Source: a virus (taxonomy: Duplodnaviria; Caudoviricetes). Taken from it: a DNA stretch of 58,329 nucleotides. This document shows, in pieces, positions 2,321-11,452 of the stretch. Where the stretch lies: IMG/VR virus record IMGVR_UViG_3300033997_000384, positions 1 through 58,329 of that record; one strand, written 5' to 3'. Below the pieces are notes generated by a model. The model made no database searches, was not told the DNA's origin, and saw nothing but the letters and a program-made list of their open reading frames with translations. A program made the translations under genes and the position numbers. Position 1 is the first letter of the stretch. Every line of letters begins with the position of its first letter.

Positions 2321-5300
2321 TCAGTCGTCGGCGCGCACCGTCTCGATTCGCTTCCCTGCCATCTCCGTCAGCCGGTTCTTGATCACCTGCAGGCGGTCCA
2401 GCTCCCTCCGCTTCCGCTCTCCGTCCCAGGCACTGAGTCGCACGATGTCCATCCGGGCGTTGATCGCGCTCAGCTGTCGCTGCACCTGGCCCAGCGGCTT
2501 GCGCATGGCCAGGATGTCGCGCTTCTCGCCTACCAACTCCCTCGCTTCATCCATACGGCCCAGCTCCTGCAGACGTTTCACGTCGGCATAGACCCGGCCG
2601 GACTCCTTCAATCCCTCGTAGAACAGCGTGCTGTAGCGGTCATACGGCGCCGGCGCGCCCAGGTCCTTGTAGAAACGCCGGATCGGCTGGTACTCGTGCC
2701 AGCGCTTCGCCGGCTCGTCCTCGCCTTTGGCCGTGCGCCAGATGGTGTCGATGATGCCAGCACCCCAACCGCCGACCTGGCCCAGGTAGCCCTGGATCAG
2801 GTGGTCAGCCTGCAGTGGCGACAACGTGAAATCGTCGCCCAGCACCGAGGTAGCCTCGGAAATAAGGTGCGCAGGCGCAGTGGTGCTGGCCCGGGCGCGC
2901 AGCGTCGGGCTGACCTTCTCCATGCCGGCACTCTCGATGGGCCGACCGGTGAAGGCGTCCTTGTTCGCGTACACGTCGAGCGCCGGCTGGAAGGCCTGCG
3001 GCACCGGCGAGAATGCGAAGGTCTGGGTCACCATCGCCCAGAGGCGGTCGCGGAACAGCTTGCCGCTGGCCTTGTCGTCAATGGCCTGCTCGGCCAGGCG
3101 CTCGGCCAGGGTGCTGACGGCGCCCACCTCGAATGGCTTGGGCAGGTTGTATTGGCCGCCGTTGATGAAGAAGACCCAGTAGCTGTCCTTCTCCCAGTCC
3201 TCCAGCTTCCGGTACCTCTCGTCGTCGTGATTGGCCAGGTACAGCATGATGCTCGCGAGCGCCAGGGCGCCGGTTACCACGCCGAAACGGGCAGCAGCCT
3301 GGCGGTCGCTCGCAGTTCCCTGGCCGAATGCGACCAGAACTGATGGCTTCACACCCGAGCGGTAGAGCTTGTCGAGACCCTGCAAGCGCGCATTCAGGAA
3401 CGGCACCACGCGGATCAGGAAACGCACCGCCGGCCAGGCACCTTCCTGGCTGAAGTCCATCAGATCCCGCGCCTCGTAGGCTGCGCGCAGAAGCCCGTGC
3501 TCTTGGTTCTGTGCAAACACCGCAGCCCGGTTAGAGTTCTCTGCAGCGTTGGCGAAGGCGTTGTACGCATCCCAGCCTGCGGTGAGCAGCTGCGGCACCA
3601 GTTTCGGACCATCCACCAGCTTGGCTCCACGCAGTCCACGGCGCAGCCCCGCTTTCACCTCTTCAGGATCCGCGCCGTAGATGTGGCCGAAGCTGAAGGC
3701 TGCGCCGCTGGCCAGCATCCGGGCGCGCTCCTTCTTGTTGGCCCAAGTCATGCCGCCCTGGAACATGTTCACCGTGATGTTCTTGCTGACCGGTGACGTG
3801 GCAGCCGCCTGCATTGTGTCCCGCAGGTAGTTGGCCACGATGAACTGCAGGGTAATCGTGGTCATGTTCGTGAAGACCCGCTTGAACATGGCCATCGCGC
3901 GCACCGCGAAGTTGTTGAGGCCTGGGTCGGCCAGCGAGGTGAGCGCCTCGAAGACCAGGGCGTCGTCCACCTGGTAGAACACACGCTCGCCAGCCTTGAG
4001 CACGAAGGTCGATGACTTCGGGTCGCGCGCCGCCTCCGGCACCTGCTTGGCGATACCCAGCTGTTCGGCGTTGGCGATCGCCTGCTGGGCGGCCTGGTTC
4101 TTCAGGCTCGCGGTCAGCAGGTGATGGAAGTTCATCAGGGTGTTTTCCAGCAGATCGTTCAGATTCTGCTTGCCGCCCTTCAGCTTCTTGTACGCCTCCT
4201 GCCGGCTCAGGCCCTTGGCGGCGCGCGGGCCGGCTGCCTTGGCCTCCTCGTCCATCACCCGGTAGAACGGGACATAGAACTCGTCCCGCCACATGGCGCG
4301 GCTTTCCGGGCTGATGATGCCGGTCTGCTCGGCGATGGCCAGCACGTCGTCCCGGTACTGCTGGAACTCGCGGAACACCTCGTCGTAGACCTTGGAACGC
4401 ACGCGGCCGTCGGCGGTGGTACCGCGGTTGATGCCCTTCAGTGCGGCGATGTCCTTGGCGTCGAAAAGGTTTTCTCGGCCCTCGGCGGCCAGCTTGGCGG
4501 CTCGGTTACCCGCGATCCAGCCCATGAAGCGCTCGATCTCGGCGGCGTCGCCCAGGCGCGAGAACACCTCGCCAAGGCCCATGCTGCCGTCGTCGCGCAT
4601 GCCGATCACCTTCTGCTGCTGGTCCAGCACGATACGACCGTTGTGCATCATGGCGTTGAGCGCGCCCGCGGCGGCCGGCGCCATGCGGGCCAGTACCCAG
4701 GCGCTGGACGTGATCGAGGATTGCAGGAAGTCGGCGCCGTGCAGCTCCTCGTCCATCTCCTTGAGCGCCGCGTACTTGTCGACCAGGCCCCGGCGGAGCT
4801 TGGTCATCAGGCGGTCGGTGTGCTCGCGGTACCAGTCGATGGCGCGCTGGCGAACGGTGCGCGGCGCGATCTTGCGCAGTGCATCCTGCTCGTCGGCATT
4901 CAGGTCGGGGTGGGCATCAGCAACGTGCGGCCGGCGGGCACCGGCCAACGAGTAGAGATTCTCGTCGGGATCTAGATGTGCTTCAGTTCCGGATCGATCC
5001 GCAGCTGCTCCTTCATCCACTCGGAAGAGGCCTTCATCTCGCGCCGCAGCGATTCGATCTCGGAGTCGCTCAGGCGATAGCTGTCCCTTGTCGAACGTGA
5101 GGAGCGTTCGAGCTTCTGATTGGGTGAGGCCTTCGTAGCCGTAGCCGAAGGTGTCACGCCACCAAGGTTCAATGCTGCCGTATTTGCCACGGACTTCCGC
5201 CAGAGTGGATGGATCAAGCGATAGCTTGCGGGAGTAGTTCTTACCGGTCAAGGCGACCGCTCCGACTACCCGACCGCCGTTGTCCTCGATGTGGGTCTTC

Positions 5301-8300
5301 AGCTGGGCCAGGGTGCCGCCCTGGGTCAGGGTGTCATCCAGGATCAGGTAGTCGCCCGCCGCCACCTTGCCTGCGAAGGTCGGCTGGTTGGCGATTCGCT
5401 CCAGGGCGCTGGACTGGGTGCGGCCAACCTTCTCGGCCTGCACCGGCGCCGTATCGGTCTCCAGCCCGAGGCGCTGGGCGAGGACCTCGGCCGCCATCAG
5501 CGGGATTCGGTTCTTTCCTGCACCTTCGACGGCCAGCACCGGCACGATGCGGGGCTGGCTGCCGTCCGGAATCAACGCACGCACCTGCTCCACGAACTCC
5601 GGGGTCACGGCGTCGCGGGCCACGCGCAGCGCGGCGGCGTCGTCGCCGGCCTTAGCCGCCTCGTAGTCCGGGTGGTTGTTCAGGAAGCTGAGCGGGTGCG
5701 CCAGCACAGTATCCGGAAACTCCTTGGACCAGCCGCGGCGGGAGTACAGCACCGCCTGGTCGGCTCCCTGGTGGCCGTTCTGCCGGCGCAGCCAGGCACG
5801 CGACTGCTCGCCCAGGGCGAGGATGTCGGTATAGGTCCAGGGCACCTGGGGGAACAGCTGGCGCAGCAGCTCGCGAATCTTCGAGAGCACACGCTGCAGC
5901 ATGGTCGGGCGGTCGCCGTCCTCGAGGAGATGCGCGACCATCTCCTGCGCCACGAGCACGCGCTGCTGCTTGGCGTCGAGGCGCTCCAGCACAGAGGCAT
6001 AGGCGTCGCGAATCTGACCGATGCGCTGCCGGCCCTTGGCCGTGGCCTGCTGGCTGGAGTAGAGCCGCTCCATGACGGTATCTAGCTCCTCGCCGAGCAA
6101 ACCGCGAATGCCGCGGTGCCCCACCTCTTCATGCACCGCGGTGTAGATCGCATCGGCCAAGCTGCTGTGGTTGCCGGCGACGATGTAGGTTTTCCCAGAG
6201 CTGCGCACACCGCGCAGGTCCTGCGGGGCCACGCCATCACGCTTCGCGCGGGTGCGGGTCGATAGCGGCAGGTCCTCGAAGTCCTGCACCACCTCGACGC
6301 CGGCCAGCTCCGGCGAAGCCTTCAGCGCCTCGCGCAGCTGATCGGCCGACACCTGCACACCTTGCTCGGTGCCCTCCTGCTGTTCGCCGCCCTGGCGATA
6401 CAGCTGGACGCCGGCATCGGTCTCGCGGGTCTCGATGGCATCCACGAGCTTGTCGAAGGCCTGGTTGATTGCCTTGCGCTCTGCACCAGTCGGGAACGGG
6501 CGTTTCCAGCCCCAGGGTGTAGGGATGGCAGCCTGCTCGGGGCCGTAGTTCAGGAACGGGCTGCTGCCACCCTGCTCCGCAACCTTGTCCTCGACGTAGC
6601 CCTGGAAGGCGCGCGCCGCCATCTCGTGCGGCGTGGTCCAGTAGTCGGTACCGCGGCCCTGGTCCAGCTCCTTGGCGTCCATGGCAAATTGAGTCGGCAC
6701 GCGCCGGGTCTTCTGCTCGCCTTCCTGAGCCTCTGCCAGCATCTTCAGGCGAGACGAGTAGTGACCCATGACGCCGCGCAGGCGGTCCAGCTCGCCGTTG
6801 CTGTCGGCGCTGAAGCCACTGCGGCCACGCACGGCCTTGTAGATCGCACTGATCTGCTCCAGTGCGTCGTTGGTCCAGCGCATACCGCTGAAGGCATTAC
6901 GGCGCGACAGCTTCGCGTCCGGCTTCGTAGAGCGAAGCTCTGTCTCCAGCTGCACGCCGTCGAGGATCTGCTGGGCCACGGTATCGAACGCGGCCAGCTG
7001 TTCCGCAGTCGCCGGCTTGTTGTGGCGCTTCCAGTACTTCGGATCTTTCTGCTCGGCCAGGTCGGCGCGCAGGCGGTCCAGACGATCGGCTACCTCCTTG
7101 CGGGAACGGGCCACGAAATTGTCGGCACGGGCGGTGTCCTCCACGTACTGCTCGGCCTTGTGCTGCATGGTGTCCATCAGCTCCTGGTAGGCCAGGCGCA
7201 CCTCCGACCGAACACCGGAGCCGGTCCGCTTGAATCCCGAGCTGACCGCCTCGCGCTCGAAGTTTCCGGAGGTCTTGAGCGAGCGGGTACCGTCCTCGTC
7301 GATCACCCACTCGGCCGAGGCCTTCCCATCCTGACGACCGAAATAGTGGTCAAGGGCGTGGAACCACTCGTGCGCCAGGGAGCCGGCGCCGTTCATCTTG
7401 GTCAGGTTGATCGCCACCTTCCCCGGCTCATAGTGAGCGCGGGCGCCGCTCAGGCCGTGGCCACGAGCACCGAAGGCCAGGGCCAGCTCGCCGTTCAGGC
7501 TGATCGCCTTGGGCGGAATGTCCATTACCTCGGCCAGGTCGAGCAGGCCGTCGTAGGCGTCGTCGAGCAGTTGCTGCCGCTCTTCCTGGTTGTTCCAGTT
7601 GCCGAACTCGACCCCTCGGAAGCCGAAGGTCTCGATAAAGGCGCTGTCCTTGACCGGACCATCACGGCGCGCGGCGCCGATGCGCTGGGCATTCGCCGGC
7701 CGCGGTAGGTCCGCCTCGCCAAAGGTGGTGTTGGTCTCGATGATCTGCTGCGCGTTGAGGGCCATGTATTCCATAGCCGCCTCACGGCTCGGGAATACCT
7801 GGTCAACGACCTTCACGCGCTTGTAATCGCTGATGGTCCGCCAAATCTCGAAGCCATCACCATCGCCCTGACGCTGCGACACGACGCGATGCTTCAGAGC
7901 AACCGCGATCAGCGGGATGGCCTGCTCGGCCTCCTCGCGCGTGGCGTAGCTGCCGACCTTCTTGGGCTGCTTCTTCCAGTCCTTGAGCCGGCTATCGCGC
8001 ACTTCCCAGCGCCCGACATCGGCAGGGTTGGTGCTACTGATCACCTCGGAAATCTCGAACCGACGCGCCCACGCCGGTCGCGTGTCGCTTTCAGCTGTGC
8101 GACCAGTGCGGGGGCCGGTGGATACAGCACGATCCTTGCGCGCACCTCCGATCTTCTCGCCGAAGTCCTCGATCTTGGCCTTCGCCTCGCCACGGGTGCG
8201 CGGCGCGAACATATCGTTCTGCCCACGCGCCTCGGCCACGTCGGCTGGACGATCAGATCCGGTAAGGGTGAAGTCGGCGCGGTCGCGGTCTGCTTGCGCC

Positions 8301-11300
8301 TTTTGCTCGGCCTGGCGTTGTGCCTCGGCCTCTGCCTGCTCGGCCGCCCGCTGCTGGGCGGCCTGCTCCGTCAGGCTTCGCTCGGTCTGCTGTTCGAGTC
8401 CGAATGGTTCGCCTTTGCCAGCTTCTCGCGGGCCAGGTCGCGCAGACGCTCGCTGCTGGCGATCTTGTCCGCCATCAGCTTGCCGTAGGGGCTCTCCTGC
8501 CAAAGCTTCTCGGCCAGCTGCTCCTGCTCCGTACTCAAGGCTTTCGGCTCGGCTTTCTTCTCGCTCGTCATACTCGTCCTCGTAGCGCTGGGCCTCTGCC
8601 AGCAGCTGCTCGTCGTGGGCCTTAGCGGCCTCCAGGTGCTCGCGCACCCTGTTCGCTACATCGACACCATGCTCTTCTTCGACCTGAGCAATATAGGCTT
8701 CAAACCGCTGCTGCTCACGCTCAATCTCGTCAGCATAACGCTGTTGCAGTTCGCGCTCCATCTGCTCCTGCTGCGCCTTCGAGCCGGCAGCGAAATGCGT
8801 GGTGCCATTCAGCTCGTCACGCAGGGCCTGCTGCAACCACGGGACGCCGCCCAGGTTGTCCATCTCGCCGGCGGGAATGTAGCCGTGCTGGTCCAGCAGT
8901 GACGCCATGTCGTCGATACTGGTTCCGGTCTTGTCGCTCCAGAGTGCCCCCACCCCGGGCACATGCTTGTTGCCCTTGCTGTCGCCCGTAGTGTCCTCGC
9001 GCCACTCGGTCTTGAGGCCGCCCAGGCGGATGGTTGCCTGCAGCAGCGAATCGCGGTCCCGATCCACCTTGCGGCGCGGCCCCTTGCTCGCAGCCGGTTT
9101 GGCGCGGCCGGGCTCTTGCCGGGCAGGCGCGGCCGGCTTCGCCAGGTCGCCGCCCTTCAGCCACTGCTTGAACTCCGCCACCGGCATCGCCGAGACCTTG
9201 CCCATCTGCCAGTCGGCGTCGAAGTTGCTGCGGTACGCGGCCACGGCCGACTCCTCGTCGGGGAAGCCGATCATTACCTTGTGCTCGTCGAAACTGCCGT
9301 CCTGCTGGTTGAGCTGGTCGACGACGAACACCTGGCCGCTCTCCTCCTGCGGCCCCAGGTAGACATCCACCTGCTCGCCGTCGGCGCCAGTGGTGCGGCG
9401 GATGTAGCCGTAGTGGTCGCTCATTGTGTGGCGCCACTCGCTACCGTCCTGTCGCCGGCCACTGCGCTCGGAGCCCCGCGGGTTCTCAATGGAGAGTTCC
9501 AGGCCGTGCACCCGGACCTTCCCCTTCTTGTAGTTGCCGGCCTCGATCTGCGCCGCGGTCGGCGCCGCCAGATCGTTGGTCGGTGACGTGGCGGCCTCGT
9601 TGGCCTTCATGTCCAGAGGACGCATCTCGTGGCGCACAGCCTCCGGCTGCACCTGGATGGCATAGCCGCCCTGCACGCGAATAACGCGCGGCTCTCGGCC
9701 GGCAGCGCGGGCCTCACGGAATGCCTTGCTCGCCTCGGCACCCTTGGGCGCGTCGAACGGCTTGCCATTGGGCTTGCGCAGCAGCTCGCCCTGCGAGCGG
9801 TCACGCGGCTGGGCGGTCGGGGCCTGCTGGTCCATGCCGCGGCCACCCTGCACCTGCTCTGTCGGGACCTGCGGCGCTACCGGGCCGCGCTTGGCGTTGC
9901 CCTCGGCGTCCACAACGATGGTCTCAGGCGCCGGCAGCGCAGCGCGCTCCGGCTCGGCGTCGATGGTCACCGGATCGCGCTGCTGTTCTGCCTGCTGCTG
10001 GCGGGCACCGAGCTGCAGCTGGCCCTCCAGCGGGGCCTGTTCCCCGCGCGGGGTCTGCTGATCCATGCCCGGGCCGCCGCCCAGGTTGGCCGGGTCGTTC
10101 TGCGGGTTGACCCAGTTGCGGGCCTGCTGGGCCGGCTGCTGCTCGCCGTCCACGTTGCGCACCGGGCCGGTGTCCTGCACGTTGCCCTGGCTGTCGCCGT
10201 AGAACACCTGCTCCGGTGGCGGCAGGCCAGCCAGGCCTGGCGCTGGCAGCGCCGCCGGCTCGGGCGTGTTCTCGAAATCGGCATCTGCCTCGCCCTGTTG
10301 GCGAGTCGGCGCCTTGCCCTCGCCCATGGCTGCACCGAGGGAGGCATGGCCGGCACCGCCAAGGGCACCCAGTACGGCGTCGCCGAAGGTGTCTGCGGTC
10401 AAGCTGCGCTGCTCGCCGAGCGCTTCGTTGGTCGAAGCCCTGGCAGCCACCGTCTCGGCAACCTCCTGCAGGCCTTCAGCTGGAGCATCGAACACCAGGC
10501 CGGCAGCAAGGCGCTGGCCGACACCACCACCCACCATCTTCTGCAGCGGGCCCAGCGTGAACTGGGTGGCCAGGCCGCCGACGGCGCCGACCGGAGCAGC
10601 GCCGCCAAAGGCCCCGTCGCGGGCGATGATGGCCAGCTTCTGCCGCGCCTCCTCCTCGCTGGCACCTTGACGACGCATCTCCCGATACACCGACGAGTTT
10701 GCCAGCAGGTCAAGGTCAGAGGTTTCGGCGATACGCTGCTCAACCTCATTGGCAGCAGCGCCGCCGGCCTGGAGGCCTCCGGTTGCCATCATGGCGGTGG
10801 ACTGCGCCTGGCCCGACTTACCGCGGGTTGCGATCAGCACGCCGGCTTGTGGAGCAAACTGGCCCACCAGGCCGGCCATCTGCAGGCCGTAGCCCGCTGC
10901 GCTCGGGTCCTCGCCGAAATCCCAGGTTTCAGGGGCCAGAACGTCGCCGGTCGGCGTGCTCTGGGCAAGCGCGTCCTTGGCGGCCTGGCTCTTGCTGTCT
11001 GCGACAGCCTGGCCCTTCTCGTCCAGCCAGCCGCCGGCAGCACGCGCGGCCGGGTCTATGGCGTCGGCGGCCAGCTCACGCAAAGACTTGATCTTGGGCA
11101 GCTCGGTGCCGTCAGGCAGGGTATTCGACAGCCCCCGGTCCTCCGGTCGGACCATATCGCCGACGCCACTGACGATAGCCCCGGTGCCCTTCAGCAGGCC
11201 GGCACCGGCCTCCTTCACGAAGTCCATAGCCCCGACCTCGCCCCGATCGGCTGTCGGCTGCGAGAGAGTTCCGAGCGTGTCCTGGTCGTACAGCTCGCGG

Positions 11301-11452
11301 GCGCGAGTCTCCCGGCCAGCAGGAACGCGCGGCAGGACTACCTGCTCGAAGTAGAGTTGGCGGGCACGCTCTTGGCGCTCTGGGGCCAGCGCGCGGAATT
11401 GCTCGCTGGCTGCCACGTCCGCCCAAGGGCGGGGTTGGCCGTTGTTCTGCAT
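2321..11452 (-). CDS. Giant polyvalent internal virion/ejected protein (InPase, LPD5/LPD1-like with zincin HEWFH, second HExxGH motif, PRTase, LPD38-like)
   Basis: 3043 aa; GNYKKG..IENP..YGYI..GADG..DV..DEHK (InPase); KIEDFGEKIGGARKD; HEWFH; YWTTPHEMAARAF; HEEVGH; LILDDTLTQGGT; WEKDSYW..PKPFEVG. Confidence 0.9.
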   Translation of the reverse strand: MQNNGQPRPWADVAASEQFRALAPERQERARQLYFEQVVLPRVPAGRETRARELYDQDTLGTLSQPTADRGEVGAMDFVKEAGAGLLKGTGAIVSGVGDMVRPEDRGLSNTLPDGTELPKIKSLRELAADAIDPAARAAGGWLDEKGQAVADSKSQAAKDALAQSTPTGDVLAPETWDFGEDPSAAGYGLQMAGLVGQFAPQAGVLIATRGKSGQAQSTAMMATGGLQAGGAAANEVEQRIAETSDLDLLANSSVYREMRRQGASEEEARQKLAIIARDGAFGGAAPVGAVGGLATQFTLGPLQKMVGGGVGQRLAAGLVFDAPAEGLQEVAETVAARASTNEALGEQRSLTADTFGDAVLGALGGAGHASLGAAMGEGKAPTRQQGEADADFENTPEPAALPAPGLAGLPPPEQVFYGDSQGNVQDTGPVRNVDGEQQPAQQARNWVNPQNDPANLGGGPGMDQQTPRGEQAPLEGQLQLGARQQQAEQQRDPVTIDAEPERAALPAPETIVVDAEGNAKRGPVAPQVPTEQVQGGRGMDQQAPTAQPRDRSQGELLRKPNGKPFDAPKGAEASKAFREARAAGREPRVIRVQGGYAIQVQPEAVRHEMRPLDMKANEAATSPTNDLAAPTAAQIEAGNYKKGKVRVHGLELSIENPRGSERSGRRQDGSEWRHTMSDHYGYIRRTTGADGEQVDVYLGPQEESGQVFVVDQLNQQDGSFDEHKVMIGFPDEESAVAAYRSNFDADWQMGKVSAMPVAEFKQWLKGGDLAKPAAPARQEPGRAKPAASKGPRRKVDRDRDSLLQATIRLGGLKTEWREDTTGDSKGNKHVPGVGALWSDKTGTSIDDMASLLDQHGYIPAGEMDNLGGVPWLQQALRDELNGTTHFAAGSKAQQEQMERELQQRYADEIEREQQRFEAYIAQVEEEHGVDVANRVREHLEAAKAHDEQLLAEAQRYEDEYDEREESRAESLEYGAGAAGREALAGEPLRQADGGQDRQQRASARPGPREAGKGEPFGLEQQTERSLTEQAAQQRAAEQAEAEAQRQAEQKAQADRDRADFTLTGSDRPADVAEARGQNDMFAPRTRGEAKAKIEDFGEKIGGARKDRAVSTGPRTGRTAESDTRPAWARRFEISEVISSTNPADVGRWEVRDSRLKDWKKQPKKVGSYATREEAEQAIPLIAVALKHRVVSQRQGDGDGFEIWRTISDYKRVKVVDQVFPSREAAMEYMALNAQQIIETNTTFGEADLPRPANAQRIGAARRDGPVKDSAFIETFGFRGVEFGNWNNQEERQQLLDDAYDGLLDLAEVMDIPPKAISLNGELALAFGARGHGLSGARAHYEPGKVAINLTKMNGAGSLAHEWFHALDHYFGRQDGKASAEWVIDEDGTRSLKTSGNFEREAVSSGFKRTGSGVRSEVRLAYQELMDTMQHKAEQYVEDTARADNFVARSRKEVADRLDRLRADLAEQKDPKYWKRHNKPATAEQLAAFDTVAQQILDGVQLETELRSTKPDAKLSRRNAFSGMRWTNDALEQISAIYKAVRGRSGFSADSNGELDRLRGVMGHYSSRLKMLAEAQEGEQKTRRVPTQFAMDAKELDQGRGTDYWTTPHEMAARAFQGYVEDKVAEQGGSSPFLNYGPEQAAIPTPWGWKRPFPTGAERKAINQAFDKLVDAIETRETDAGVQLYRQGGEQQEGTEQGVQVSADQLREALKASPELAGVEVVQDFEDLPLSTRTRAKRDGVAPQDLRGVRSSGKTYIVAGNHSSLADAIYTAVHEEVGHRGIRGLLGEELDTVMERLYSSQQATAKGRQRIGQIRDAYASVLERLDAKQQRVLVAQEMVAHLLEDGDRPTMLQRVLSKIRELLRQLFPQVPWTYTDILALGEQSRAWLRRQNGHQGADQAVLYSRRGWSKEFPDTVLAHPLSFLNNHPDYEAAKAGDDAAALRVARDAVTPEFVEQVRALIPDGSQPRIVPVLAVEGAGKNRIPLMAAEVLAQRLGLETDTAPVQAEKVGRTQSSALERIANQPTFAGKVAAGDYLILDDTLTQGGTLAQLKTHIEDNGGRVVGAVALTGKNYSRKLSLDPSTLAEVRGKYGSIEPWWRDTFGYGYEGLTQSEARTLLTFDKGQLSPERLRDRIAAARDEGLFRVDEGAAADRSGTEAHLDPDENLYSLAGARRPHVADAHPDLNADEQDALRKIAPRTVRQRAIDWYREHTDRLMTKLRRGLVDKYAALKEMDEELHGADFLQSSITSSAWVLARMAPAAAGALNAMMHNGRIVLDQQQKVIGMRDDGSMGLGEVFSRLGDAAEIERFMGWIAGNRAAKLAAEGRENLFDAKDIAALKGINRGTTADGRVRSKVYDEVFREFQQYRDDVLAIAEQTGIISPESRAMWRDEFYVPFYRVMDEEAKAAGPRAAKGLSRQEAYKKLKGGKQNLNDLLENTLMNFHHLLTASLKNQAAQQAIANAEQLGIAKQVPEAARDPKSSTFVLKAGERVFYQVDDALVFEALTSLADPGLNNFAVRAMAMFKRVFTNMTTITLQFIVANYLRDTMQAAATSPVSKNITVNMFQGGMTWANKKERARMLASGAAFSFGHIYGADPEEVKAGLRRGLRGAKLVDGPKLVPQLLTAGWDAYNAFANAAENSNRAAVFAQNQEHGLLRAAYEARDLMDFSQEGAWPAVRFLIRVVPFLNARLQGLDKLYRSGVKPSVLVAFGQGTASDRQAAARFGVVTGALALASIMLYLANHDDERYRKLEDWEKDSYWVFFINGGQYNLPKPFEVGAVSTLAERLAEQAIDDKASGKLFRDRLWAMVTQTFAFSPVPQAFQPALDVYANKDAFTGRPIESAGMEKVSPTLRARASTTAPAHLISEATSVLGDDFTLSPLQADHLIQGYLGQVGGWGAGIIDTIWRTAKGEDEPAKRWHEYQPIRRFYKDLGAPAPYDRYSTLFYEGLKESGRVYADVKRLQELGRMDEARELVGEKRDILAMRKPLGQVQRQLSAINARMDIVRLSAWDGERKRRELDRLQVIKNRLTEMAGKRIETVRADD
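4972..5190 (-). CDS. Overprinted +1-frame small ORF at the end of the PRTase domain (start uncertain: GTG 5190 or TTG 5217)
   Basis: Last 35 codons 30/35 G/C-ending versus 12/35 in the main frame (hand count); charged helical sequence. Confidence 0.55.
   Translation of the reverse strand: MANTAALNLGGVTPSATATKASPNQKLERSSRSTRDSYRLSDSEIESLRREMKASSEWMKEQLRIDPELKHI
8371..8571 (-). CDS. Overprinted +1-frame 66-aa ORF inside the giant gene
   Basis: GAGGA RBS then ATG; 57/66 G/C-ending codons versus 29/66 in the main frame (hand count). Confidence 0.65.
   Translation of the reverse strand: MTSEKKAEPKALSTEQEQLAEKLWQESPYGKLMADKIASSERLRDLAREKLAKANHSDSNSRPSEA

What the first reader, a model, noticed from the sequence alone, without database searches (positions are those of the whole stretch)
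8371..8571. Second overprinted +1-frame gene (66 aa) with its own RBS inside the giant gene
Seen: GAGGA-cgagt-ATG opens MTSEKKAEPK...LWQESPYGKLMADK...*, with 57/66 G/C-ending codons. The overlapping main frame has only 29/66 and encodes a featureless linker. It directly follows a compact domain (DSLLQATIRLGG..SIDDMASLL..GY). Inference: two such ORFs, same frame, each just after a domain, suggest a domain-plus-nested-inhibitor architecture, like toxin-immunity pairs folded into one virion gene. Standard gene callers would miss this; it is the best candidate here for an undescribed system.
Basis: partly seen in the sequence, partly recalled or inferred. Interest (0 to 1): 0.82.

Follow-up and report, generated by a model that had tools for sequence, protein, structure and literature searches.

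The report
Small gene hidden inside giant gene
A 66-codon gene lies hidden in a second reading frame inside a phage's 3043-codon virion-protein gene and is kept in distant relatives, so routine annotation is missing a small protein that probably works with the giant one.

Summary
Confirmed. The 66-codon ORF at 8371-8571 (-) lies in the +1 frame of the 3043-codon InPase/LPD1/LPD38 polyvalent gene.

It is not an accident of GC-rich DNA:
- The same +1 ORF is kept in 18 records (9 lineages) from genomes of 36-68% GC.
- Each has an ATG 26-31 codons before a conserved [YF]G and a stop at about the same place.
- An SD-like run precedes the ATG in 9 of 9 lineages (16% background).
- Main-frame codons at the core are held as rare xTA-CGG-xxA-GCT-GAT.
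- Main-frame third-position change is depressed.
- +1-frame conservation exceeds all 1000 synonymous-codon redraws.
- The main frame there is a predicted disordered linker.

Best reading: a real nested gene for a ~7 kDa helical protein, made by internal initiation on the late mRNA.

Relatives carry two further, unrelated +1 genes in linkers. I found no known family and no paper. It is a new variant of a known kind (embedded phage genes).

The parts
2321..11452 (-). Host gene: 3043-codon polyvalent virion-type protein (main frame, f0)
   Evidence: ORF list. Pfam InPase 634-766, LPD1 1596-1676 and LPD38 2744-2922 above cut-off, PRTase weak. It lies among internal-virion-protein and tail-fibre genes.
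8371..8571 (-). Nested +1-frame gene, 66 codons plus TGA ('type A' small protein)
   Evidence: Conserved in 18 records / 9 lineages. The AF2 model has helices 14-26 and 28-58, mean pLDDT 80.9.
8577..8581 (-). Shine-Dalgarno-like GAGGA, 5 nt before the nested ATG
   Evidence: An SD-like 4-mer lies within -17..-4 of the start in 9 of 9 lineages, against 1518/9513 (16%) of all positions and 13/142 (9%) of other ATG triplets.
8473..8487 (-). Conserved core: +1 frame reads Y-G-K-L-M, while the main frame reads L-R-Q-A-D with rare codons CTA CGG CAA GCT GAT
   Evidence: Single match in the window, none in 100 shuffles. Invariant in the window, L001 and L004. Codon table across 16 loci.
8393..8530 (-). 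Main-frame stretch over the nested gene that is predicted disordered (gene residues ~975-1020)
   Evidence: In the AF2 model of the 300-residue module, pLDDT is below 50 for segment residues 175-220.
8798..9052 (-). Upstream 'DSLLQ...GTSIDDMA...GY' domain of the same module (gene residues ~801-885); no known family
   Evidence: Conserved block in alignments A2/A3. No Pfam or PDB sequence match of note.
8207..8275 (-). Downstream conserved main-frame motif DFTLTGSDRPADV..GQNDMF that closes the module
   Evidence: Invariant columns D260-F282 of A2. Kept in all 9 lineages.
4972..5217 (-). The other +1-frame ORF named in the finding (after the PRTase-like domain); its last ~38 codons are conserved, and its start is unclear
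   Evidence: Main-frame GC3 dips to 0.30 where +1 GC3 is 0.87. +1 identity exceeds main-frame identity in 6 of 6 pairs. The first common start codon after the upstream +1-frame stop is a TTG, and no ATG precedes the conserved core.

Best explanation
This is a genuine protein-coding gene nested in the +1 frame of the giant polyvalent virion-protein gene. It sits in the part of that gene that encodes a disordered linker between the DSLLQ domain and the DFTLTGSDRPADV..GQNDMF motif. It is most likely translated from the same late mRNA by internal initiation at its own SD and ATG. No sigma-70-like promoter was found nearby. The product is a soluble, cysteine-free protein of about 7.4 kDa. It has a polar Lys/Ser/Thr/Pro-rich N-terminal arm of about 25 residues, then a long amphipathic helix that begins at the conserved [ST]-x-[YF]-G-x-L-M-x-x-K motif, then a Ser-rich tail. 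Shown here: dual coding, conservation of start, frame and core, and selection on the +1 frame. Inferred: because the small gene always travels with this module, its product probably acts with the polyvalent protein while it is made and packed, as an assembly chaperone or as a neutralising partner. That functional step is a guess, at about 25%. The codon-usage asymmetry suggests that the small gene is the older layer and the giant gene's linker is written over it.
For: (1) Composition. The ORF is the gene-wide extreme of low main-frame GC3 and high +1 GC3. In relatives, main-frame GC3 over the ORF moves to about 0.33-0.47 whether the local baseline is ~0.85 (65-68% GC), ~0.65 (56% GC) or ~0.15 (36.5% GC). 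That is how a codon second position behaves.
(2) Conservation of the gene's anatomy. 18 records collapse to 9 lineages with 33-84% main-frame identity (most pairs 33-65%). All keep a +1 ORF of 54-69 codons with an ATG 26-31 codons before the [YF]G. In L087 and L088 a +1 stop lies within 6 codons upstream of an ATG. An SD-like run is present in 9 of 9 lineages against a 16% background.
(3) Codons. At the core the main frame is always xTA CGG xxA/G GCT GAT. The main-frame residue varies (L/V/I, Q/G/A/E) while the +1 residues stay Y/F, G, L, M, and the Gly codon varies only at its own third base.
(4) Synonymous constraint. Codon identity given the same main-frame residue peaks at 0.78-0.88 over the core, against 0.40-0.55 elsewhere.
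(5) Third-position change. Main-frame third-position differences in the ORF against the flanks are 6/53 vs 90/224 for window-L001 (p=4e-5), 21/43 vs 174/212 for L086-L088 (p=1.5e-5), and p=7e-4 summed over 4 separate pairs. Main-frame first-position change is raised (p=5e-4).
(6) Null model. Keeping every main-frame protein and redrawing synonymous codons gives core +1 identity 0.195 (max 0.254) and BLOSUM62 0.17 (max 0.68). Observed values are 0.355 and 1.70, reached by 0 of 1000 replicates.
(7) AT-rich relative. In the 36.5% GC relative both frames are open over 58 codons, where +1 stops occur at 7.3% per codon (P~0.012 at a given place).
(8) Gene calls. Gene callers have called three such proteins with the same kind of start (P0122 55 aa, P0123 69 aa, P0124 58 aa).
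(9) Main-frame product. The main frame is predicted disordered over the overlap.
(10) RNA. There is no RNA-structure signal (z=+0.33; 126 of 200 shuffles fold as well) and no Rfam match.
Against: There is no expression evidence of any kind: no peptide, no ribosome footprints and no mapped start. The N-terminal 25 codons are not conserved in sequence between deep pairs (+1 identity 0.20, main frame 0.24); only their composition and the ATG/SD are kept. Of the 4 separate pairs, L078-L095 shows no drop in main-frame third-position change (22/37 vs 136/224, p=1) and L087-L093 only p=0.055. Over the whole ORF, close pairs show about as many changes silent in the main frame as silent in the +1 frame (window-L001 10 vs 10; L087-L093 15 vs 10), so the arm and tail are weakly constrained. 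The deep pairs used share ancestry, so their counts are not independent, and the linker alignment has gaps. No free-standing homologue was found. The position of the start varies by 5 codons. Part of the C-terminal similarity is a shadow of the conserved main-frame LEQQTE motif. Nothing supports any particular function.
Confidence: 0.75

Rival explanations
1. The +1 frame is translated, but not as a separate gene. A programmed +1 ribosomal frameshift sends some ribosomes from the main frame into it, which gives a truncated ~1000-residue isoform that ends in this peptide, in the manner of dnaX gamma or lambda G/GT.
For: Selection on the +1 frame fits this as well. The second nested ORF at 4972-5217 has no ATG before its conserved core, so a non-initiation route is conceivable there. 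An internal SD-like run can stimulate +1 shifting in prfB (recalled).
Against: An ATG with an SD-like run at the 5' end of the open stretch is kept in 9 of 9 lineages. In L087 and L088 a +1 stop lies within 6 codons upstream of an ATG, and in the type B locus L071 the stop is 6 codons upstream, which leaves almost no room for a shift site. Reading the aligned DNA, I saw no conserved slippery run before the ATG, but I ran no formal scan.
Confidence: 0.08
2. The +1 frame is a relic. An ancestral stretch was read in that frame, a pair of compensating frameshifts moved it, and the codon signature has not yet decayed. Nothing is translated in +1 today.
For: This was my first guess: the main frame looks like out-of-frame text and the +1 frame looks like real protein.
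Against: The signature persists between lineages with only 33-45% main-frame identity and across 36-68% GC, where free third positions would long since have drifted to the genomic bias. The +1 frame keeps its own ATG, SD and stop. Main-frame homologues never read the peptide in frame: phmmer of the 66 aa against 1.84 billion proteins found only one unrelated repeat protein.
Confidence: 0.05
3. The conserved stretch is a nucleic-acid signal (an RNA structure or a protein-binding site) and the open +1 frame is incidental.
For: A 15-nt run is invariant between loci that are otherwise 44% identical at protein level.
Against: Variation follows +1 codon structure: GGC/GGG is silent, Y goes to F, and the variable codon takes K/E/R/Q/N. 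The fold energy is no better than shuffles (z=+0.33) and there is no Rfam hit. No promoter-like site was found. A signal would not explain the ATG, the SD and both frames being open in AT-rich DNA.
Confidence: 0.04
4. It is a chance ORF of GC-rich DNA with no function.
For: At 65% GC, +1 stretches of 100-229 codons occur in the same genes.
Against: All the conservation tests argue against this, as does the gene-wide composition extreme.
Confidence: 0.02

Closest known systems
Lambda Rz/Rz1 spanin genes (Rz1 embedded in the +1 frame of Rz)
   Same: A small gene lies wholly inside a larger phage gene, in the +1 frame and with its own start, and the two products work together. This is recalled; for PMC5295617 I saw only the search listing and the start of the abstract.
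   Different: Rz1 is a secreted lipoprotein with a signal sequence and a lipobox Cys (recalled). The 66-aa protein here has no Cys and no hydrophobic segment (GRAVY -1.16). The host gene is a virion polyvalent protein next to tail and internal-virion genes, not a lysis gene. No sequence relation was found.
Overprinted genes of small viruses (phiX174-type; reviewed in PMC8227390, search listing and start of abstract only)
   Same: One DNA stretch codes in two frames, synonymous change in one frame is depressed, and one of the two products is disordered.
   Different: This is a 58-kb dsDNA phage with no obvious pressure on genome size. The frame with genome-like codon usage is the small one, and the disordered product is the giant gene's linker. 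The arrangement recurs with unrelated small genes at the same and other linkers.
Programmed-frameshift isoforms (dnaX tau/gamma, lambda G/GT; recalled)
   Same: A second frame inside a long gene is translated and ends at an early stop.
   Different: Here the second frame has its own conserved ATG and SD directly after a +1 stop in several lineages.
Effector-immunity or effector-chaperone gene pairs of conflict systems (polyvalent proteins: PMC5512222, passages read)
   Same: A small partner gene is genetically tied to a domain of a large, delivered multi-domain protein.
   Different: The partner is nested rather than adjacent. No toxic activity is known for the neighbouring domain, there is no homology to any immunity or defence family, and no binding evidence. 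The paper's text has no occurrence of 'overlapping', 'frameshift' or 'linker'.
Pfam LTXXQ family PF07813 (which I recall as including Spy and CpxP)
   Same: The unrelated 'type B' +1 protein at the same place in relatives matches it: 2 of 3 members, best 25.1 bits against a cut-off of 24.3. This hints at a helical chaperone-like protein.
   Different: The window's type A protein does not match (0 of 13 members). Types A and B are not detectably related (hhalign probability 2%). I saw no signal-peptide-like hydrophobic stretch when reading the sequence.

Membership tests
Functional overlapping (dual-coding) gene | The alternative frame is open in homologues beyond chance | tested here: met
   Open in all 18 type A records. 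In the 36.5% GC loci it is a 58-codon stretch where +1 stops run at 7.3% per codon, P~0.012. In codon redraws a mean of 4.27 of 9 lineages were open, against 7 observed; 36 of 1000 redraws reached 7.
Functional overlapping (dual-coding) gene | Own start codon and ribosome-binding site are conserved | tested here: met
   ATG 26-31 codons before [YF]G in 9 of 9 lineages. SD-like 4-mer in 9 of 9, against 16% of all positions and 9% of other ATGs.
Functional overlapping (dual-coding) gene | Depressed synonymous change in the host frame over the overlap | tested here: met
   Codon-identity peak of 0.78-0.88 against 0.40-0.55. Third-position change 69/177 in the ORF against 466/878 in the flanks, p=7e-4. 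Two of the 4 pairs are individually significant, one is p=0.055 and one is not.
Functional overlapping (dual-coding) gene | Protein-level selection on the alternative frame beyond what host-frame conservation gives | tested here: met
   0 of 1000 synonymous redraws reach the observed +1 identity or BLOSUM score in the core. This is met for the core only, not for the N-terminal arm.
Functional overlapping (dual-coding) gene | The product is detected (peptide, footprints) | not testable with these tools
   No proteomic or ribosome-profiling data were available, and I did not search sequencing runs.
   The DSLLQ domain matches no Pfam or PDB family, and its AF2 model is partly low-confidence.
   No hit in Pfam, PHROGs (best E 0.0065, unknown function), PADLOC or NCBIfam for the 13 members. 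No usable ESM Atlas hit.
Embedded o-spanin (Rz1-like) | Signal sequence with a lipobox Cys; sits in the lysis cassette | tested here: not met
   The 66 residues have no Cys and a GRAVY of -1.16. The host gene is among virion genes.
Pfam LTXXQ (PF07813) | Profile match above the gathering score | tested here: not met
   0 of 13 type A members match. The match holds only for 2 of 3 members of the unrelated type B.

The most novel reading that the evidence does not exclude
Giant polyvalent phage genes may be built by reading through small resident genes. In that case the disordered 'linkers' between domains are a second layer written over functional small genes in the +1 frame, and each mobile module carries its own hidden partner protein (a chaperone or neutraliser). 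At least four unrelated +1 genes point this way: type A here; type B at the same place in L079/L070/L071; the PRTase-end ORF at 4972-5217; and a 119-131-codon gene in L088/L091/L007. Polyvalent genes would then be compact operons in disguise, and a whole class of phage small proteins would be invisible to current annotation.
Probability: 0.35. Interest if true: 0.85.

Novelty: new variant of a known kind. Interest (0 to 1): 0.75.

Why it matters
Polyvalent proteins are thought to enter the host cell with the phage DNA and to counter host defences (PMC5512222, passages read). How such 3000-residue multi-enzyme proteins are made, kept harmless and packed is not known. A conserved hidden partner gene inside the linker gives a concrete handle, because it can be knocked out without touching the giant protein. 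It also shows that gene callers, which forbid long same-strand overlaps, systematically miss small phage proteins. The simple signature used here, main-frame GC3 drifting to second-position values whatever the genomic GC, can find more of them. If the small frame is the older one, the case also documents how giant fusion genes grow by reading through neighbouring genes.

Tried and rejected
Compensated frameshift or sequencing error. This was my first reading. I dropped it when the same two-frame arrangement appeared in isolate genomes, MAGs and viromes of 36-68% GC.

Free-standing homologues.
- phmmer of the 66 aa against 1.84 billion representatives gave one hit, P0001. It is a 492-aa protein with five ECPYGKK-type repeats and is probably a chance match.
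- The A4 profile against 5.8 billion clusters gave only three small proteins with the same architecture. I could not see their context.
- The A5 profile (type B) gave none.

Annotated phage collection. tblastn of the peptide and of the 300-aa module found nothing. blastn found only a 57-nt match in a Dolichospermum phage.

Binding test. One complex-prediction job paired the DSLLQ domain (residues 1-95 of A3) with the small protein (A4). The result was 'no answer', score 0.00 in two runs, and the controls were not folded. It says nothing either way.

Relation between types A and B. hhalign gave a probability of 2%, so I treat them as unrelated.

Other negative results.
- Promoter scan of 8200-9100: none found.
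- RNA fold and Rfam: nothing.
I redid this through handles: 7 of 401 genomes of that family sample had the module.

Things not done.
- Fold search was not used, because a single long helix and a half-confident domain model would give meaningless matches.
- The look-up of sequencing runs and read laying were not used, because RNA coverage cannot show translation.
- No paper supplements were asked for. Supplementary tables of PMC5512222 may list this module under a name I did not see.

Literature. Three searches and passage searches in two papers found no mention of nested or overlapping genes in polyvalent proteins. The library does not cover most subscription journals.
Full report
WHAT IS THERE.
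The window is a 58-kb virus record of 64.6% GC. The minus strand carries a 3043-codon gene at 2321-11452. It has Pfam InPase (residues 634-766), LPD1 (1596-1676) and LPD38 (2744-2922) domains above cut-off and a weak PRTase match. It lies among genes for an internal virion protein and tail fibres. [quoted passage not shown]

The finding's ORF runs from 8571 to 8371 on the same strand and starts at gene nt 2881, which is the +1 frame. It has 66 codons and is preceded by GAGGA-CGAGT-ATG. This is the extreme of the whole gene. Of 2977 sliding windows the minimum falls at nt 2877, and the largest frame difference falls at nt 2880.

IS IT MORE THAN A GC-RICH ACCIDENT?
Openness alone is worthless here, because +1 stretches of 100-229 codons occur in these genes. 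My first guess was a compensated frameshift. Relatives decide the matter.

Using the main-frame module as query, I collected loci from several sources:
- viral contigs;
- metagenome contigs;
- species-representative genomes;
- a 401-genome sample of one family, in which 7 genomes had the module.

Eighteen records carry a recognisably homologous +1 ORF. They collapse to nine lineages whose main-frame identity is 33-84% pairwise, mostly 33-65%, and whose loci range from 36.5% to 68% GC.

In every lineage the +1 frame has the same anatomy:
- an ATG 26-31 codons before a conserved [ST]-x-[YF]-G-x-L-M-x-x-K motif;
- a polar Lys/Ser/Thr/Pro-rich stretch between the ATG and that motif;
- a helix-like stretch after it;
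- a stop close to the main-frame LEQQTE motif.

An SD-like 4-mer lies 4-17 nt before the ATG in 9 of 9 lineages. The background is 16% of all positions and 9% of other ATG triplets in the same segments. In the L087 and L088 groups a +1 stop lies within 6 codons upstream of an ATG.

WHICH FRAME IS SELECTED?
At the core the main-frame codons are always xTA CGG xxA/G GCT GAT. These are rare codons in GC-rich genomes, and CGG is rare in the AT-rich one. The main-frame residues vary (L/V/I; Q/G/A/E; A/G/Y) while the +1 frame keeps Y/F, G, L and M. The Gly codon varies only at its own third base.

Main-frame GC3 over the ORF converges on about 0.33-0.47 whether the local baseline is ~0.85, ~0.65 or ~0.15. 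This is what is expected if that position serves as the second position of a codon in another frame.

Codon identity given an identical main-frame residue peaks at 0.78-0.88 over the core, against 0.40-0.55 elsewhere.

Main-frame third-position change, ORF against flanks:

| Pair | ORF | Flanks | p |
|---|---|---|---|
| window-L001 | 6/53 | 90/224 | 4e-5 |
| L086-L088 | 21/43 | 174/212 | 1.5e-5 |
| L087-L093 | 20/44 | 66/218 | 0.055 |
| L078-L095 | 22/37 | 136/224 | 1 |
| Sum of the four | 69/177 | 466/878 | 7e-4 |

Main-frame first-position change, which is the +1 third position, is raised (p=5e-4).

Over 34 deep pairs, the +1 translation of the core is as conserved as the main frame (identity 0.36 and 0.36; BLOSUM62 1.70 and 1.67). 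In the two flanking linker stretches the +1 score is only 0.19 and 0.52, against main-frame scores of 1.75 and 2.20.

As a null model I kept all nine main-frame proteins and redrew synonymous codons from each locus's own usage. This gives a core +1 identity of 0.195 (max 0.254) and a BLOSUM62 of 0.17 (max 0.68). None of 1000 replicates reaches the observed values.

In the AT-rich loci both frames are open over 58 codons, although +1 stops run at 7.3% per codon.

The pairs share ancestry, so these numbers are not independent probabilities. They all point the same way, and the flanks of the same gene serve as the control.

WEAK POINTS.
- The N-terminal arm is conserved in composition and start but not in sequence.
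- Over the whole ORF, close pairs show as many main-frame-silent changes as +1-silent changes.
- Part of the C-terminal similarity is a shadow of the main-frame LEQQTE motif.
- No free-standing homologue turned up.
- There is no expression evidence.

THE PRODUCT AND THE HOST FRAME.
The 66-aa protein is 7.4 kDa, pI 6.6, GRAVY -1.16 and has no Cys. AlphaFold2 on the 13-row alignment gives helices 14-26 and 28-58, with mean pLDDT 80.9 and above 90 through the middle.

It matches no family in Pfam, PHROGs, PADLOC or NCBIfam and gives no usable ESM Atlas hit. Gene callers have nevertheless called three members elsewhere, with the same kind of start.

The main frame over the overlap is predicted disordered (pLDDT below 50 for gene residues ~975-1020). 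It sits between a long helix and a second helix. The DSLLQ domain upstream has no known family.

There is no promoter-like site, no RNA structure and no Rfam match.

HOW IT MOST LIKELY WORKS.
Shown: this stretch codes in two frames, and the +1 frame is under protein-level selection with a conserved start.

Inferred: the small protein is made by internal initiation on the giant late mRNA. It is therefore produced when and where the polyvalent protein is made. Because the ORF always travels with the DSLLQ-linker-GQNDMF module, which sits at very different positions in different polyvalent proteins, its job is probably tied to that module. A chaperone for folding or packing, or a neutralising partner, are the obvious candidates, and I give them about 25% together.

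The +1 frame has genome-like codon usage and the main frame does not. By the usual criterion, which I recall from the overprinting literature, the small gene is then the older layer and the linker is written over it.

A +1 frameshift isoform is the main rival (8%). The ATG/SD directly after +1 stops argues against it.

THE WIDER PATTERN.
Its +1 peptide YRL[ST]xSEI[ED]SL...W..EQLxIDPELKH[IL] is kept in L104-L106 and, in a duplicated form, in L107. +1 identity is 25-28/38 against main-frame identity of 18-24/38 in all 6 pairs, and most changes fall at the main-frame first position in 5 of 6 pairs. Its start is unclear, because no ATG precedes the core.
- In a second subfamily (L079, L070, L071) the same linker holds a different +1 ORF of 52-62 codons with its own SD and ATG. 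It is 52-55% identical in +1, while the main-frame linker is visibly less alike (by eye about 35%). It is unrelated to type A, and 2 of 3 members match Pfam LTXXQ.
- In AT-rich L088/L091 and in L007 a 119-131-codon +1 gene with SD and ATG lies in another disordered linker. It is 80% identical in +1 against 65% in the main frame between L088 and L091, and the third frame has 7-19 stops over the same span.
- Single-sequence candidates sit at the same place in L073, L090 and L009.

WHAT IS KNOWN.
Embedded +1 genes are known in phages (lambda Rz1 in Rz) and overprinting is well studied in small viruses. I found no paper that links polyvalent proteins with nested or overlapping genes. The founding paper's text does not contain 'overlapping', 'frameshift' or 'linker'.

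VERDICT.
- Observation: confirmed.
- Nested gene: supported at about 0.75.
- Inhibitor function: untested.
- Novelty: a new variant of a known kind.
- Interest: 0.75.

Noticed in passing
window 4972-5217 (-); L104-L107: The other +1 ORF, after the PRTase-like domain, is conserved more strongly in +1 than in the main frame (25-28/38 against 18-24/38 in 6 of 6 pairs). L107 carries a duplicated form. No ATG precedes the conserved core, so how it is initiated is open.
   Followed up: partly
L079:2979-3143, L071:3479-3634, L070:3479-3664: A different 52-62-codon +1 ORF ('type B') sits at the same place after the DSLLQ domain. It has its own SD-like run and ATG and is unrelated to type A by hhalign. 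2 of 3 members match Pfam LTXXQ (PF07813) just above cut-off.
   Followed up: partly
L088:531-923 (-), L091:612-1004 (-), L007:3926-4273 (+): A 119-131-codon +1 gene is nested in another disordered linker of giant genes in 37-47% GC genomes, with an ATG and an SD-like run. Between L088 and L091 it is 80% identical in +1 against 65% in the main frame. The third frame has 7-19 stops over the same span. It matches no family.
   Followed up: partly
L073, L090, L009 (codons ~100-230 after the start of the DSLLQ domain): Single-sequence +1 open stretches of 50-76 codons lie at the equivalent place. There +1 GC3 is 0.62-0.83 and main-frame GC3 is 0.38-0.49. One starts with Met directly after a stop. 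I did not test their conservation.
   Followed up: no
L086/L099, at the +1 stop: The +1 stop falls at the same place in most lineages but is made in different ways. It is TGA from a main-frame CTG followed by A, or TAG (as I read it, from a rare main-frame Leu codon CTA followed by G) in L086. This could reflect selection for termination there.
   Followed up: no
L091 (second copy in genome G035): The DSLLQ domain of this copy matches in three different frames (-3, -2, -1), so the copy may be frameshifted at its 5' part. It still keeps both nested ORFs.
   Followed up: no
P0001: The only phmmer hit of the 66-aa protein is a 492-aa protein with five repeats of an ECPYGKK/CPYG motif. The resemblance to ESPYGKLM is probably chance.
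   Followed up: partly
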